Shown here in pieces: positions 29,271 through 58,984 of a stretch of DNA of 64,000 bases. The number at the start of each line of letters is the position of its first letter. The first letter of the stretch is position 1. This DNA is from the human T2T-CHM13v2.0 reference genome, Homo sapiens. Under the pieces are notes generated by a model, which saw only the letters and a list, made by a program, of their open reading frames with translations, ran no database searches and was not told where the DNA came from. Where the stretch lies: NCBI RefSeq assembly GCF_009914755.1, contig NC_060941.1. The stretch is one strand, 5' to 3'. The position numbers and the translations under genes were made by a program.

Positions 29271-29477
29271 CTGAAGGCAGGGTCAGGGAAATTCAGAATT
29301 TCACAGGAGAATATGGAAAAATTGAGAGCAAGACATAAATGAATGGGATGCATTGGTGAAAGTTCTCTTACTGCAATATCACTAGCAGCTTTGTAAGCCA
29401 CCAAGCTGTTCTCTGCCACCTCCTTCCTGTCATTTCCTGTGGCAAATTCTGCCAGATACCTGTGGTAGACCCCTTTC
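29271..29477 (-). pseudogene. YWHAE: YWHAE exon 4 copy (207 bp)
   Basis: ttttgctgtag|GAAAGGGG...CTTCAG|gtaaga. Translates [68 protein letters not shown](R), with no stop. Confidence 0.95.
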
Positions 29478-30091
29478 CTACAGCAAAATTAAAAAAAAAA
29501 ATTAAACCAGGAACAATGATTTTTAAAGTAAAAGAGCTAAAATTGTTCTATATAATATAAAATATGTGACAAAAAATATACGTAACAATTAACAAGTGTA
29601 CTTCAATAATTTTAAACACTCAGGAATATTTGGCTTCATTTCATTTTTTTCTTAGACATTTCATACTATTTTCCTTATTAAATGTAACCAAAAATCCCAC
29701 AGAGATTAACTGAGGAGCCTCTAAATATCAGCAAAACTATCGCTTGATAGACTAGAATTAAACAAGCAAGTGGTTCCAAGAAATGGCACAAGTGTATTAA
29801 TCATAAAATAAAATTTCTACATGAAACATTCAGCCAGCACTGTGCAATATGTGGCCATTTAGGGGAGGGGAATGAGATAGGTCCCATGAAAGCAAAACAA
29901 TATAAATAAGTAAAGCAAAAGCTAATGCATTTTTATAATAGCCTGACCATCTTTTTATTCCAACATCAACTATCCTTCTAACATTAAACAATTATTTGTA
30001 AATAAAAGTTGGAAACCTACATAGAAGAAAGTCATGATTCTAAAAAGGCCAACTTTTAATCTTACATTTTCCTTTCTAGTATAGAACCTAC

Positions 30092-30198
30092 ATTTCATAA
30101 TAGAAAACCTTGGACTTGCCAGTGGTAGCTGCTGGAATGAGGTGTTTGTCCAGTGCATCCAGAACATCGCCGCAGATTAACTTTAGCTCAGTCTCAAC
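30092..30198 (-). pseudogene. YWHAE: YWHAE exon 3 copy (107 bp)
   Basis: ttttttcag|GTTGAGACT...GAAAT|gtaggt. Translates [35 protein letters not shown](M); parent is [36 protein letters not shown]. Confidence 0.95.
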
Positions 30199-31359
30199 CT
30201 GAAAAAATAAAGATAAATTTTAAAAAATCAGACTGTTTCAGTCTAGAAATTCTGTAAATTTATTACACATTCTATCTACCTCTGGTTTTGAGGAAGAGAG
30301 CTTAGTGTTACAGAGAATTCATTTCCCTCTCCAAACTCCCTTCCTCCCTTTTGACACAAAAGCAGAGAAAAGCTGCCTGTCGGTTATCAAAAGTATCTTT
30401 TCCTTCCTGCCTGCAATTAAGTGCTACACACACACCACCCCCCACCCCAATACCCCCTCACAGTCCAACTGCAGAATCACCAATGACTGAAACTAAACAC
30501 TGATGCTACTTGGTAAACGCTGGTCAATTACATGAATCTTTCACAAGGTAGCAACTATTGTATCCATTTACTGGGAAAGCAGAACCTAAGACATTTGCTC
30601 AAAGATCATCACCTTAAAAGAACTTAATAAGCAGAGCTAGGATTTGAAACCAGGCAGGGTGCAAGGGACAGAACAAAATTCAAACCCAGGCAATTTGCCT
30701 TCAGTACTTACATTCCTAACAACGTTGAACAGGCAATCCCTTTAGTGGAAGAGACCAAAACTAGTTAAGATACCAAAAATCTATGGACCAAAAAAACTAC
30801 TGCCACTCATCTCTATTCATTTATAATGCTGAAAATGTACAGCACCTCTAAACGCACATACCCAGCTTGCTTCCTTTTTTTTTTTTTTTTTTGAGACGGA
30901 GTTTTGCTTTGTCCCTCAGGCTGGAGTGCAATGGCACCATCTCAGCTTACTGCAAGCTCTGCCTCCCGGGTTCACACCATTCTCCTGCCTCAGCCTCCCG
31001 AGTAGCTGGGACTACAGGCGCCACCACCATGCCCGGCTATTTTTTTTTTTTTTTTTTTTGTATTTTTAGTAGAGACAGGGTTTCACCATGTTAGCCAAGA
31101 TGGCCTCGATCTCCTGTCCCCGTGATCCTCCCACCTCGGCCTCCCAAAGTGCTGAGATTACAGGCATGAGCCACTGCACCCAGCCTGGGTTTTTTTTTTT
31201 TTTTTTTTTTTGAGACAGGAGTCTCACTCTGCTGCCCAGGCTAGAGTGCAGTGGCGTGATTTCATATATGATGTTTATTCTAATAACAGCAAAAGGGGGA
31301 AGAGGGCAATGGAGCTTTACAGGAGAAAACTGCTTTCTGCAAGTCTTTATCTTTTTGCA

Positions 31360-56300: not shown

Positions 56301-57500
56301 CCTGGTGGCGTGTGCCTATAATCCCAGCTATTCAGGTGAGTGAGGCAGGAGAGTCCTTTGAACGGGGGAGGCAGAAGCTGCAGTGAGCCAAGATCAAGCC
56401 ACTGTACTCCAGCCTACATGACAGACAGAGACCATCTCAAAAAAAAAAAAAAAAAAAAAAAGATCAACAACCAAGTCAAAAAGCAGACCACAGAAGAGAA
56501 AAAAACAAATTGCTCTTCAAACTGTTAAAAGATGTCAACTTCACTAATATTAAGAGAAATGCAAAACGACTGCTTGGATATACAAACTTTCACCTGTTAG
56601 GTAAGCAAAGGTATAAGGAACAGCTTTTTTATTCATATATTGGTAAAACTGGGAACATATATTGGTAAAACTACAGGGAGAATAACTTGGGACTATCCAT
56701 CAAAATTAATTGCAAAACTCCTTTGACCCAATGTTTCCACCTACGGAAATTAATAATCCTATAGATATACTTGTATACCAGCAAAATGACATATATAAAA
56801 GAGTTAGTCATCAAAGTAGATCAGAAAGTGCATCAACAACTGATTGATTAGATAACATGGTTAAAAAGGAAAAAAAAGGCTCTATACTGATAACAGGATA
56901 AATTGTTCATGCCGGGTGCGGTGGCTCACGCCTGTAATCTCAGCACATTGGAAGGCCGAGGCAGTAGGATCATTTGGGGTCAAGAGTTCAACACCAGCCT
57001 GACCAATATTGTGAAACCCCATCTCTACTAAAAATATAAAAATTAGCTGGGCGTGGTGGCGCATACCTGTAATCCCAGCAACTTGGGAGGCTGCAGCAGG
57101 AGAATGGCTTGAGCCGGGAAGGTGGAGGTTACAGTGAGCGGAGACTGCACCACTGCACTCCAGCCTGGGTGAATGAGCGAAGCTTCAAAAAAAAAGAAAA
57201 TTGAAGAAAAAAGAAAAGAAAAGTCTCAAAAAAAAGAAAAAAGATAAATTGTTCAGTGAAATAAATTAAGACGCAGAAGAGTATATAATATTAACCCATT
57301 TGTATAAAGATGGAGGGAGTAAAGAAGTATTTGTCCATTCACATCTGAATATGCAAAAGAAACCTAGAAAGATATGCAAGAAAGTAAATAATTATAAGGT
57401 AGCAGGAAAGCTATTGATAAACTGGGCAGATGGGGAAGAGGAGTAACAGGAAGGGTTTTCAATATATTTTTAAATTTTGTACAATCTGACTGTATAACAT
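50380..57500 (+). mobile_element. Old L1M ORF1/ORF2/3' remnants heavily interrupted by Alus (inside the MLLT10-derived intron)
   Basis: A-rich L1-like segments (gatgggattaacagcag-like, agttagaaaagaagagg, gtcaaatttcttgaaaaa) between more than ten Alus. Confidence 0.6.
53703..53994 (+). mobile_element. Young AluY nested in the linker of an AluS (53567-54200)
   Basis: CpG-rich; TSD aaaatacagaaaatt. Confidence 0.9.
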
Positions 57501-58929
57501 AGTCTGAAGATTAAACTGTATAATATATATAGCTAGCCAAAATGATTGTATTTTTCCCATTTATTCACACCATTACTCTAGTCTATGCCAAAACTACTTT
57601 AGAGGTGGCTACCCAAAATGGAGAAGAGTATAGTATCTACTTTTTTTAGCTGCCGCATCATGTATGCCATGGCTTAATAAACTCACGTCTACACATTTCA
57701 GAACAGTACTGAGCTACATGTACAAAAATACGAGTTCTCTAACAAAGATAACTAAAAGTAGAGAAGAAAATGAGTAATGCACAAGGGTCCATAGGAAAGC
57801 ATACCAAAATGTGATACAGAAGTCAGCATTTCTTTTTTTCTTTTCTTTTTTTTTTTTTTGAGACAGGGTCTCACTCTCACCCATCTCAGGGACTGAAGTA
57901 CAGTGGTGTGACCATGGCTCAATGCAGCCTCCACCTCCCACGCTCAAGCCATCCTCCTGCTCAGCTTCCCAAGTAGCTGGAACTACAGGCACGTGCCACC
58001 ATGTGGAACTAAGTCTTTTTATTTTTATTTTTTATATTTACTTTTGCAGAGACCAAGGTCTCCCTATGTTGCCCAGGCTGGTCTCAGGCTCCTACGCTCC
58101 AGTGAGCCTCCTACCTTGGCCTCTCAAAGAGCTGGGATTACAGGTGTCAGGCACCCAGCCTAAAAGTCAACATTTCTTTATATTCCAGCCACAAAGATCC
58201 TCAGAGTTAAATGAAATTAACATTCACTAGAAACATCATCTGTCTAGAGATATACAAAACAGAAAAAAAGAATCTAAAACAACAGATTTTAGGTCTAACA
58301 ACAACAACAACAAAATGTGGCTCATTTTTCAAAAAAAATTCCTAACACAAGAAACTATATCCATTTAACAAAATACACTTTCTTTTTTTTGAGACAGTCT
58401 CCTTCTGTCATGGAGGCTAATGGTCAATGGTGCAATCTCAGCTCACTGGAACCTCTGCCCCCCAAGTTCAAGTTTTTCTCCTGCCTCGGCCTCCCAAGTA
58501 GCTGGGACTACAGGCATGCATCACCACGCCCAGCTAATTTTTCTATTTTTAGTAGAAACCAGGTTTCACTATGTTGGCCAGGCTGCTCTCGAACTCCTGA
58601 CCTCAGGTGATCCACCACCCTCGGCCTCCCAAAGTGCTGGGATTACAGGTGTGAGCTACCTCGCCCAGCCAAAAAAATAAGAATTTTAATTAGAAGTATG
58701 TATTTAATAAATCATTCTGCATAAAGTAGCCAATGCTTAAGTTTGTCCACAAAGTAGAAAAATTGTGGGTCAATACATAATAATGATTCATAAATTATAG
58801 CCACTACTGTTAAAAATGAGTAGAAAACACTGTTTAATTTGATGAAATAAAATAAACTACCAGATATTTGAAAATACTCCACCGCCCCAGTTTTCAATAA
58901 AAATTTTTTCAAGAAATCTCTGCACTTAC

Positions 58930-58984
58930 CCCCATTATCTGTTCTTTTTAAAGCTCCATCCTTATGGGGACAAAGTTCACATCT
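58930..58984 (-). pseudogene. MLLT10: MLLT10 (AF10) exon copy, 55 bp, first half of the PZP zinc knuckle
   Basis: ttttcttgtttatag|AGATGTGAA...AATGGGG|gtaagt. Translates [18 protein letters not shown](G). Confidence 0.9.

What the first reader, a model, noticed from the sequence alone, without database searches (positions are those of the whole stretch)
29271..58984. Cryptic in-frame AF10 (MLLT10)::14-3-3 epsilon (YWHAE) chimeric gene assembled by duplication
Seen: four minus-strand exons (58930-58984, 49174-49283, 30092-30198, 29271-29477; 479 nt) have intact GT-AG sites and no stop or frameshift. The second MLLT10 exon ends in phase 0 and YWHAE exon 3 starts in phase 0, so splicing gives one frame: [25 protein letters not shown]...[27 protein letters not shown]...PDPAFR. 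An internal ATG (49221-49219, tccacaATGg, strong Kozak) would yield at least 120 codons. Established: AF10 and YWHAE are each recurrent 5'/3' partners in somatic cancer fusions. Inference: this is a germline, primate-specific exon-shuffled chimera that a 'YWHAE pseudogene' label would hide. It could make a micropeptide or cause false MLLT10-YWHAE fusion calls in RNA-seq. Caveat: the many replacement changes suggest neutral decay, so the open frame may be chance.
Basis: partly seen in the sequence, partly recalled or inferred. Interest (0 to 1): 0.8.

Follow-up and report, generated by a model that had tools for sequence, protein, structure and literature searches.

The report
Annotated MLLT10–YWHAE chimeric transcribed pseudogene
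This is a real mosaic of duplicated MLLT10 and YWHAE gene fragments that is spliced into one RNA, but it is the already annotated pseudogene YWHAEP7 and its open reading frame looks like a decaying leftover, not a protein-coding gene.

Summary
All four minus-strand exons have AG/GT sites and give a 479-nt frame of 159 codons with no stop. They derive from AF10/MLLT10 (32 of 36 residues) and 14-3-3 epsilon/YWHAE exons 3-4 (29 of 35 and 54 of 67).

Origin: an MLLT10 duplicon of more than 53 kb (7.1% intron divergence from chr10) abuts an older YWHAE fragment of about 3 kb (15.4%). They meet at an Alu-filled junction, 30880-31262. The duplicon ends inside an MLLT10 intron, so the MLLT10 donor splices to the YWHAE exon 3 acceptor.

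That junction is already in RefSeq NR_024178.2 (YWHAEP7). RefSeq uses a newly created donor at 29372, then an Alu exon that supplies the stop codon.

Coding is not supported:
- Substitutions fit neutrality: P(no stop) is 0.38-0.50, and non-synonymous versus synonymous counts give p 0.09-0.35.
- The ATG is the sixth in the transcript and sits inside a 43-codon upstream ORF.
- The stop lies 162 nt before the last junction, so nonsense-mediated decay (NMD) is expected.
- Both domains are truncated.

The lack of indels (P about 0.03-0.09) and one ambiguous proteomics listing keep a small chance of translation. The locus is ordinary and of low interest.

The parts
31263..64000 (-). MLLT10-derived segmental duplicon (introns plus two coding exons). 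It continues beyond the window to at least window coordinate 84000.
   Evidence: collinear blastn blocks run from window 31263 to 84000 against chr10 21626395 down to 21582319, at 83-93% identity; 93% over 1.3-kb probes; 577 of 8169 aligned intron bases differ (7.1%).
59660..59712 (-). Annotated first exon of NR_024178.2. It derives from MLLT10 intron sequence and has no CpG island.
   Evidence: Hub annotation; aligns to chr10 21604689-21604771, and the GT donor is also present in the parent. GC 0.36-0.38 and CpG o/e 0-0.28 around the start.
58930..58984 (-). MLLT10 coding exon copy (translation [19 protein letters not shown]). It carries three out-of-frame upstream ATGs (58982, 58959, 58935).
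   Evidence: 55 of 55 bases identical to chr10, with the same AG/GT. ATGs at transcript nt 56, 79 and 103.
49174..49283 (-). MLLT10 coding exon copy (AF-10 residues 100-135 in 5dag_A numbering). It ends in phase 0.
   Evidence: 32 of 36 residues; 8 of 110 bases differ (4 non-synonymous, 4 synonymous); zf-HC5HC2H_2 profile 21-54 of 109, at 26.2 bits, below the 27-bit cut-off.
49219..49221 (-). In-frame ATG (context TCCACAATGG). It is the sixth ATG of the annotated transcript.
   Evidence: ATG at transcript nt 171, ORF of 118 codons. Five upstream ATGs lie at nt 56, 79, 103, 118 and 160. The one at nt 103 opens a 43-codon ORF ending at nt 234.
48875..49085 (.). Alu inserted after the duplication from chr10. 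It is shared with the second copy at chr17 48.3 Mb.
   Evidence: query 816-1030 is absent from chr10 but present in the 97% copy; there is a block gap at 48874-49086.
30880..31262 (-). Junction between the two duplicons: an Alu 3' fragment with poly-A, followed by a full-length Alu.
   Evidence: MLLT10 homology stops at 31263 (chr10 21626395) and YWHAE homology starts at 30879 (chr17 1251399). The sequence between them is Alu. The hub mask lists 30864-31266 as repeat.
28055..30879 (-). YWHAE-derived fragment (exons 3 and 4 with their introns). It belongs to an older chr17 low-copy-repeat family.
   Evidence: 28949-30879 matches chr17 1249497-1251399 at 81%, and 28055-28703 matches 1247874-1248533 at 79%; 84% to the parent. 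Six 17p copies match at 93% and six copies at 37.2-39.0 and 63.1 Mb match at 96%.
30092..30198 (-). YWHAE exon 3 copy (14-3-3 epsilon 87-121). Its acceptor receives the MLLT10 donor.
   Evidence: 29 of 35 residues; 9 of 107 bases differ; 14-3-3 profile positions 80-113 of 223.
29271..29477 (-). YWHAE exon 4 copy (epsilon 123-189). The annotated transcript uses only 29372-29477, because a new donor (GCA|GTAAGA) arose at 29371-29370.
   Evidence: 54 of 67 residues; 25 of 207 bases differ; three copy-lineage substitutions (exon 3+4 positions 214, 216, 218) turn the parental ...GCAATGACA... into ...GCAGTAAGA.... Hub annotation supplies exon 29372-29477.
20091..20348 (-). Exon whose 5' ~110 nt is an antisense Alu. 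It holds the stop codon of the ORF at 20255-20253.
   Evidence: exon positions 3-113 match 47 other places in the window (the 11 listed are 79-86% identical); the stop ends at transcript nt 527, which is 162 nt before the last exon junction (nt 689).
17918..19683 (-). Terminal exon, derived from a third duplicon (distal 17p13.3).
   Evidence: 83% identity to chr17 49821-51390 and 85% to 49430-49517, on the opposite strand. Apart from one 38-bp match on chr22 (92%), there is no other match in the genome.

Best explanation
The locus is a transcribed, spliced, chimeric unprocessed pseudogene, the annotated YWHAEP7 / NR_024178.2. It was built by juxtaposing segmental duplications. An old fragment of YWHAE (exons 3-4, part of a chr17 low-copy-repeat family) already lay at 17q12. 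A duplicon of more than 53 kb from the MLLT10 gene on chr10 later came to lie next to it, with the joint in Alu sequence. The MLLT10 piece breaks inside the intron after the 'WAH…NK' exon, so that exon's donor has no MLLT10 acceptor left. It splices 19 kb downstream to the first good acceptor, that of YWHAE exon 3. Both boundaries are phase 0, so the parental frames join. Transcription starts at a weak non-CpG start site in former MLLT10 intron. The RNA then uses a mutation-created donor inside YWHAE exon 4, an exonised Alu, and a terminal exon from a third 17p13.3 duplicon. The 118-codon ORF is a not-yet-destroyed remnant evolving neutrally. The RNA is most likely a low-abundance, NMD-sensitive non-coding by-product. 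Shown here: the anatomy, the parentage, the junction and the neutral substitution pattern. Inferred: the order of events, NMD sensitivity and lack of translation.
For: Parentage and structure:
- Searches give the protein matches. Searches give DNA homology that includes introns. One search shows identical exon boundaries.
- One search shows the Alu junction.
- Searches place the next AF10 exon (5dag_A 136-169) at chr10 ~21631475-21631579, about 5 kb beyond the duplicon end at 21626395. No MLLT10 acceptor is therefore left.
- The splice junction is in the curated transcript (hub table). The cDNA FLJ37577 is named in the PMC2847553 passage. qPCR of LOC284100 in 80 placentas is reported in PMC3842959 (passages).

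Neutrality:
- 28 of 34 differences in the YWHAE exons map to the copy lineage (17 non-synonymous, 11 synonymous), 1 to the parent, and 5 are ambiguous.
- The neutral model expects a non-synonymous fraction of 0.70. Binomial p is 0.30 (17 of 28) and 0.09-0.13 (24-25 of 42, all exons).
- Copy-lineage exon divergence of 8.9-10.5% is not below half the intron divergence, 7.7%.
- 20 of 104 14-3-3 residues are replaced.
- P(no stop) is 0.38-0.50.
- As a neutral control, 6 of 6 other 17p copies of YWHAE exon 3 are also open with AG/GT, as is exon b in the second MLLT10-derived copy.

Poor translatability:
- Five upstream ATGs precede the start, two of them in strong context.
- A 43-codon upstream ORF overlaps the start.
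- The stop lies 162 nt upstream of the last junction.

Truncated domains: 14-3-3 profile positions 80-150 of 223, and a sub-threshold zf-HC5HC2H_2 match at 21-54 of 109. Only 16 AF10-derived residues follow the ATG.
Against: - There are no indels in 479 nt, where intron-calibrated rates predict 3.2-3.5 in the copy lineage. P(0) is 0.03-0.04 and P(no frameshift) is 0.07-0.09.
- Exon 58930-58984 is 55 of 55 identical to chr10, although the flanking introns differ by 6.7-8.3%.
- Raw pairwise dN/dS is 0.36, and a naive two-lineage neutral test gives p = 0.002. This is expected when the parent is constrained, and it vanishes after polarisation and a transition-aware null.
- All eight splice dinucleotides are intact.
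- A 2010 lung-tumour proteomics table lists IPI00903243.1 'LOC284100 cDNA FLJ37577' at 21% coverage (PMC2847553, passage). No peptides are shown. Two tryptic peptides of the ORF, VETELK and [11 protein letters not shown], are shared with 14-3-3 epsilon.
- Differential expression in placenta and tumours shows regulated transcription. That is compatible with some RNA-level role.
Confidence: 0.85

Rival explanations
1. One reading: the chimera is a young protein-coding gene or micropeptide. Translation from ATG 49221 would give a product of about 118 aa (16 AF10 residues, 71 14-3-3 epsilon residues, then a 31-residue tail from the Alu-bearing exon), with or without a function.
For: - The ATG is in strong context.
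- The frame is open, with no indels (P 0.03-0.09).
- Point estimates of dN/dS are below 1: 0.36 pairwise, and 17 non-synonymous to 11 synonymous against an expected ~2.35:1.
- The IPI entry is listed in a proteomics table (PMC2847553).
- The phosphate-binding Arg-Tyr of helix E is retained in 'YHRYL' (alignment; the role of these residues is recalled, not tested).
Against: - None of the dN/dS departures is significant under a proper null.
- 20 of 104 residues are replaced in a protein that I recall as near-invariant in mammals.
- Only Pfam 14-3-3 positions 80-150 of 223 are encoded. From textbook knowledge, this lacks the N-terminal dimerisation helices and helices C, G-I of the binding groove.
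- Five upstream ATGs precede the start, including an overlapping 43-codon ORF, and the stop is NMD-positioned.
- The C-terminal 31 residues are read from the Alu-bearing exon 20091-20348.
- The proteomics listing can be explained by the two peptides shared with abundant 14-3-3 epsilon.
Confidence: 0.07
2. The spliced RNA has an RNA-level function. It could be a regulatory lncRNA or competing-endogenous RNA for YWHAE or MLLT10, or an enhancer-associated transcript next to HNF1B. The ORF would be irrelevant.
For: - It is reported as up-regulated in pre-eclamptic placenta by qPCR (PMC3842959, passages).
- It appears in papillary thyroid and head-and-neck tumour lists (PMC6246933 and PMC5685291, passages).
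- It is linked by HiChIP to ovarian-cancer risk SNPs at 17q12 (PMC8017555, table passage).
- RefSeq enhancers overlap the terminal exon (hub table).
Against: All of this evidence is correlative, from expression or network lists. No perturbation experiment turned up in the 14 and 23 papers that hold the two gene names (only titles, abstract starts and a few passages were seen). The exons diverge at least as fast as half the intron divergence, so no sequence constraint is visible. The start site is not a CpG island.
Confidence: 0.07
3. The apparent chimera is an assembly or annotation artefact and no such contiguous locus exists.
For: The region lies among chr17 low-copy repeats, where assemblies have historically been error-prone.
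Against: - The window has no N.
- The two duplicons meet at a defined Alu junction.
- The copy differs from every paralogue found (97% or less), so it is not a collapsed duplicate.
- A curated cDNA-based RefSeq spans the junction (hub table).
Confidence: 0.01

Closest known systems
Transcribed unprocessed (duplicated) pseudogenes at segmental-duplication junctions. YWHAEP7 itself is annotated as one.
   Same: It is a partial copy that retains introns and splice sites. It is transcribed and spliced, decays neutrally, and has an Alu-rich duplication boundary.
   Different: The label names only one of at least three parental loci. The first three exons come from MLLT10 and the last from distal 17p13.3.
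CHRFAM7A and USP6 (Tre2), chimeric genes made by juxtaposed partial duplications. Both are recalled from the literature and were not examined here.
   Same: Exons of two unrelated parental genes were brought together by segmental duplication and spliced in frame. USP6 also involves the chr17 TBC1D3 duplicon neighbourhood.
   Different: From recall, those genes encode proteins with experimental support and substantial domains. Here the domains are truncated, the start codon is buried behind upstream ATGs, the stop is NMD-positioned, and no constraint is detectable.
Somatic cancer fusions involving MLLT10 (for example KMT2A::MLLT10 and PICALM::MLLT10) and YWHAE (YWHAE::NUTM2/FAM22)
   Same: The same two parental genes are involved, with in-frame exon-to-exon joining. 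A YWHAE/FAM22B fusion chain (7v9b_A) appears among the PDB hits.
   Different: From recall, MLLT10 contributes its 3' part and YWHAE its 5' part in tumours. Here the order is reversed, the pieces are diverged germline copies at 17q12 rather than the real genes, and neither oncogenic portion is present. No paper holds the term 'MLLT10-YWHAE' (0 papers).
Alu exonisation with premature termination
   Same: The penultimate exon starts in an antisense Alu that supplies both the acceptor region and the stop codon.
   Different: Here it terminates a frame inherited from two parental genes rather than interrupting a functional gene.

Membership tests
Transcribed unprocessed chimeric pseudogene (segmental-duplication mosaic) | Homology to the parent extends through introns and is not confined to exons | tested here: met
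   intron alignments cover 8169 nt (MLLT10, 7.1% divergent) and 1516 nt (YWHAE, 15.4%). Processed copies on chr7 and chr2 match exons only.
Transcribed unprocessed chimeric pseudogene (segmental-duplication mosaic) | Only part of each parental gene is present | tested here: met
   The next AF10 exon lies outside the duplicon. YWHAE homology is limited to window ~28055-30879, which holds exons 3-4. Whether upstream AF10 exons lie beyond the window was not settled.
Transcribed unprocessed chimeric pseudogene (segmental-duplication mosaic) | Transcribed and spliced across the duplicon junction | not testable with these tools
   No RNA-seq data were available here. This rests on the hub's RefSeq row (NR_024178.2, BestRefSeq), the cDNA FLJ37577 named in PMC2847553 and qPCR in PMC3842959.
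Transcribed unprocessed chimeric pseudogene (segmental-duplication mosaic) | No purifying selection on the encoded peptide | tested here: met
   17 non-synonymous to 11 synonymous copy-lineage changes against an expected 0.70 non-synonymous fraction, p = 0.30. All exons together give p 0.09-0.13. Power is low with 42 changes, and the lack of indels (P 0.03-0.09) points weakly the other way.
Functional chimeric protein-coding gene (exon shuffling by duplication) | Accessible start codon and a stop codon compatible with a stable mRNA | tested here: not met
   the ATG is the 6th in the transcript, inside a 43-codon overlapping upstream ORF, and the stop is 162 nt upstream of the last exon junction.
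Functional chimeric protein-coding gene (exon shuffling by duplication) | Evidence of translation | not testable with these tools
   The only evidence is an IPI database entry listed at 21% coverage, with no peptides shown (PMC2847553). 2 of 14 tryptic peptides are shared with 14-3-3 epsilon.
14-3-3 protein family (Pfam PF00244) | Complete domain of about 223 profile positions (nine helices) | tested here: not met
20 of 104 residues are replaced.
AF10/AF17 PZP (PHD-Zn knuckle-PHD) module | The full module (the solved AF-10 construct, 5dag_A, has 208 residues) | tested here: not met
   The two exons in frame cover roughly chain residues 81-135. After the ATG only 16 AF10-derived residues remain. 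The Pfam zf-HC5HC2H_2 match is 26.2 bits against a cut-off of 27.

The most novel reading that the evidence does not exclude
In some tissue (placenta, brain or tumours) the RNA escapes NMD, and leaky scanning or reinitiation reaches ATG 49221. This would yield a 118-aa protein restricted to Old World primates, containing a diverged fragment of 14-3-3 epsilon residues 87-157 (roughly helices D-F, from recall). It could interfere with 14-3-3 folding or clients, or act as a tumour-associated antigen. Under this reading the missing indels and the identical first MLLT10 exon would be traces of weak constraint.
Probability: 0.05. Interest if true: 0.45.

Novelty: already known. Interest (0 to 1): 0.15.

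Why it matters
The practical value is small.

(1) Annotation. The gene name, and the papers that use it, treat YWHAE as the only parent, whereas three of the seven exons are MLLT10-derived and one comes from distal 17p13.3. Studies that pair pseudogene with parent, and ceRNA analyses, are therefore incomplete.

(2) Read mapping. The 55-nt MLLT10-derived exon is identical to the real MLLT10 exon. Short reads there multi-map, and a pipeline whose reference lacks NR_024178 could report an 'MLLT10-YWHAE' fusion. This is an inference; no such report was found (0 papers).

(3) Proteomics. Two tryptic peptides are shared with 14-3-3 epsilon, which can produce spurious identifications of the conceptual protein.

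Otherwise it is a textbook case of segmental-duplication junctions creating spliced chimeric RNAs.

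Tried and rejected
(a) MLLT6/AF17 as the source of the PHD-type exons. I recall this paralogue as lying at 17q12. Rejected: DNA including introns matches chr10 at 83-93% over more than 50 kb. 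A search with the parental exon found only 3 places, chr10 and the two chr17 copies.

(b) A skipped MLLT10 exon between 49174 and 31263 that would break the frame. None exists, because the next AF10 exon lies outside the duplicon.

(c) Upstream AF10 coding exons. A motif screen of ORFs in the 30 kb of chr10 upstream of the first copied exon showed nothing I could recognise. Whether the duplicon beyond window coordinate 84000 holds the AF10 start exon stays open.

(d) More outgroups and paralogues (the 96% copies, the chr17 28.35 Mb copy and a third processed pseudogene) could not be fetched. Polarisation therefore rests on two processed pseudogenes, and only for the YWHAE exons. The 4 synonymous MLLT10 differences are unpolarised.

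(e) Structure or complex prediction of the chimeric protein was not attempted, because the spliced product is not a contiguous translation of the window.

(g) Literature searches: 'MLLT10-YWHAE' gave 0 papers. 'YWHAEP7' gave 14, 'LOC284100' gave 23 with 20 listed, 'MLLT10P' gave 20 with 15 listed, and 'FLJ37577' gave 1. Judged from titles, abstract starts and the passages read, none describes the chimerism. Supplementary tables were not opened and could hold fusion-call or Ribo-seq entries.

Full report
**Observation.**
- I read the four claimed minus-strand exons and joined them in a script.
- Their lengths are 55, 110, 107 and 207 nt, 479 nt in total. 4 of 4 acceptors are AG and 4 of 4 donors are GT.
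- Frame 0 runs through 159 codons without a stop. The other two frames are full of stops.
- Against solved structures, exon 49174-49283 matches AF-10 residues 100-135 (32 of 36 identical, E 4e-16).
- Exon 30092-30198 matches 14-3-3 epsilon 87-121 (29 of 35). Exon 29271-29477 matches epsilon 123-189 (54 of 67).

**What is already annotated.**
- The hub's table shows that RefSeq NR_024178.2 (YWHAEP7, a transcribed pseudogene) contains these exons, including the 49174->30198 junction.
- There the parental ...GCAATGACA... has become ...GCAGTAAGA... through three copy-lineage substitutions, which created a strong GT donor.
- The transcript then continues into exon 20091-20348 and the terminal exon 17918-19683.
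- The chimeric RNA is therefore not cryptic. Only its name hides the MLLT10 part.
- Papers treat it as a YWHAE pseudogene or lncRNA. I saw passages in PMC3842959, PMC5685291 and PMC6246933.

**Origin.**
- Searches of the window's own genome show that the 5' part is a copy of chr10 (MLLT10), introns included. Two 1.3-kb probes match at 93%.
- Collinear blocks run from window 31263 to at least coordinate 84000 (20 kb past the window end), against chr10 21626395 down to 21582319.
- Intron divergence is 577 of 8169 bases, or 7.1%.
- The next AF10 exon (5dag_A residues 136-169) lies at chr10 ~21631475-21631579, about 5 kb beyond the duplicon end.
- The copied 'WAH…NK' exon is therefore left without its natural acceptor.
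- The 3' part, window ~28055-30879, copies YWHAE exons 3-4 with their introns from chr17 ~1.25 Mb. It is much more diverged: 84% by search, and 233 of 1516 intron bases, 15.4%.
- This fragment belongs to a chr17 repeat family. Six copies in 17p (16.8-20.7 Mb) match at 93%. Six partial copies at 37.2-39.0 and 63.1 Mb match at 96%.
- Between the two duplicons lie an Alu 3' fragment and a full Alu, at 30880-31262.
- The terminal exon is 83-85% identical to distal 17p13.3 (chr17 49430-51390, opposite strand). This is a third duplicon.
- Using assumed neutral rates of 1.0-2.2e-9 per site per year, the MLLT10 piece dates to roughly 17-37 My and the YWHAE piece to 39-86 My.
- The junction is therefore probably of catarrhine age. 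This is inference, because no other primate genome could be consulted.

**Why the frames join.**
- Exon boundaries and phases are the same as in the parents. The MLLT10 exon ends after a complete codon, and YWHAE exon 3 begins with one.
- Compatible phases have a prior of about one in three.

**Is the frame kept by selection?**
- Differences from the parents are 0 of 55, 8 of 110, 9 of 107 and 25 of 207 bases.
- Pairwise Nei-Gojobori dN/dS is 0.36. That figure is expected when one partner, the real gene, accepts only synonymous changes.
- I used two processed YWHAE pseudogenes as outgroups. 28 of 34 YWHAE-exon differences fall in the copy lineage (17 non-synonymous, 11 synonymous), 1 in the parent, and 5 are ambiguous CpG sites.
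- A transition- and CpG-aware mutation model on the parental exons gives 69% non-synonymous, 29-30% synonymous and 1.8% stop changes.
- Against that null, 17 of 28 gives p = 0.30, and 24-25 of 42 for all exons gives p = 0.09-0.13.
- Copy-lineage exon divergence (8.9-10.5%) is not lower than half the intron divergence (7.7%).
- Random substitution at the observed density leaves the 479-nt frame free of stops in 38-50% of 20,000 trials.
- As neutral controls, 6 of 6 other 17p copies of YWHAE exon 3 are open with intact splice sites. The MLLT10 exon in a second copy at chr17 48.3 Mb is open too.
- Two observations point the other way. No indel occurs where intron-calibrated rates predict 3.2-3.5: P(0) is 0.03-0.04 and P(no frameshift) is 0.07-0.09. 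The first MLLT10 exon is also identical to its parent.
- Both are weak and were noticed post hoc. From general knowledge, the human genome holds thousands of unprocessed pseudogene fragments, so some open remnants of this size are expected.

**Translatability.**
- In NR_024178.2 the in-frame ATG is at nt 171 and is the sixth ATG.
- Upstream ATGs lie at nt 56, 79, 103, 118 and 160. Those at 79 and 103 have A at -3 and G at +4.
- The ATG at nt 103 opens a 43-codon ORF that ends at nt 234, past the candidate start.
- The ORF has 118 codons and stops at 20255-20253, inside an antisense-Alu segment of exon 20091-20348.
- The stop is 162 nt upstream of the last exon junction. This exceeds the 50-55-nt rule for nonsense-mediated decay, which is established knowledge.
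- The product would carry 16 AF10 residues, then 14-3-3 Pfam profile positions 80-150 of 223, then 31 residues read from the Alu-bearing exon.
- From textbook knowledge of 14-3-3 structure, such a fragment lacks the dimerisation helices and most of the ligand groove.
- A 2010 lung-tumour proteomics table lists the conceptual protein (IPI00903243.1, 'LOC284100 cDNA FLJ37577') at 21% coverage (PMC2847553, passages). No peptides are given.
- Two of the 14 tryptic peptides of the ORF are identical to 14-3-3 epsilon peptides, so that listing is not evidence of translation.

**Verdict.**
- It is the already annotated transcribed pseudogene YWHAEP7. It is best explained as a neutral by-product of juxtaposed segmental duplications.
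- The cancer-fusion analogy does not hold in orientation or content (from recall).
- A small residual probability, about 5-7%, remains that the ORF is translated.
- Interest is low.

Noticed in passing
window 36637-56309: A second copy of about 20 kb of the MLLT10-derived duplicon lies at chr17 48306839-48326449 (95-97% identity). It contains the 'WAH…NK' exon, still open with 3 base differences, but neither the first MLLT10 exon nor any YWHAE piece. It shares the post-duplication Alu at 48875-49085, so it was copied from the 17q12 locus or a common precursor, not from chr10.
   Followed up: partly
window 29577-30400 (YWHAE exon 3 and flanks): This fragment is a component of chr17 low-copy repeats. 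Six copies at 16.76-20.66 Mb match at 93%. Six rearranged partial copies at 37.19-39.03 and 63.12 Mb match at 96%, each followed by an inverted piece of the same intron. One more copy at 28.35 Mb matches at 84-88%. All six 17p copies share three of the window copy's amino-acid changes.
   Followed up: partly
window 17918-19683: The terminal exon of YWHAEP7, which overlaps two RefSeq enhancer features, is 83-85% identical to chr17 49430-51390 near the 17p telomere, on the opposite strand. Its divergence is similar to that of the YWHAE fragment, so the two may have been duplicated together.
   Followed up: partly
window 58930-58984: This 55-nt exon is identical to the real MLLT10 exon, while the surrounding introns differ by about 7%. 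The cause could be chance or a short gene-conversion patch. It makes short reads here ambiguous between MLLT10 and YWHAEP7.
   Followed up: no
literature, not the window: A TWAS preprint (PMC10680675, passages) reports a 'trans' association of the 262-bp chr20 pseudogene MLLT10P1 with a chr17 SNP near the HOXB genes. Because chr17 holds two MLLT10-derived duplicons, cross-mapping of reads might be worth excluding. However, the MLLT10 exon tested here has no chr20 match (3 of 3 hits were on chr10 or chr17).
   Followed up: no
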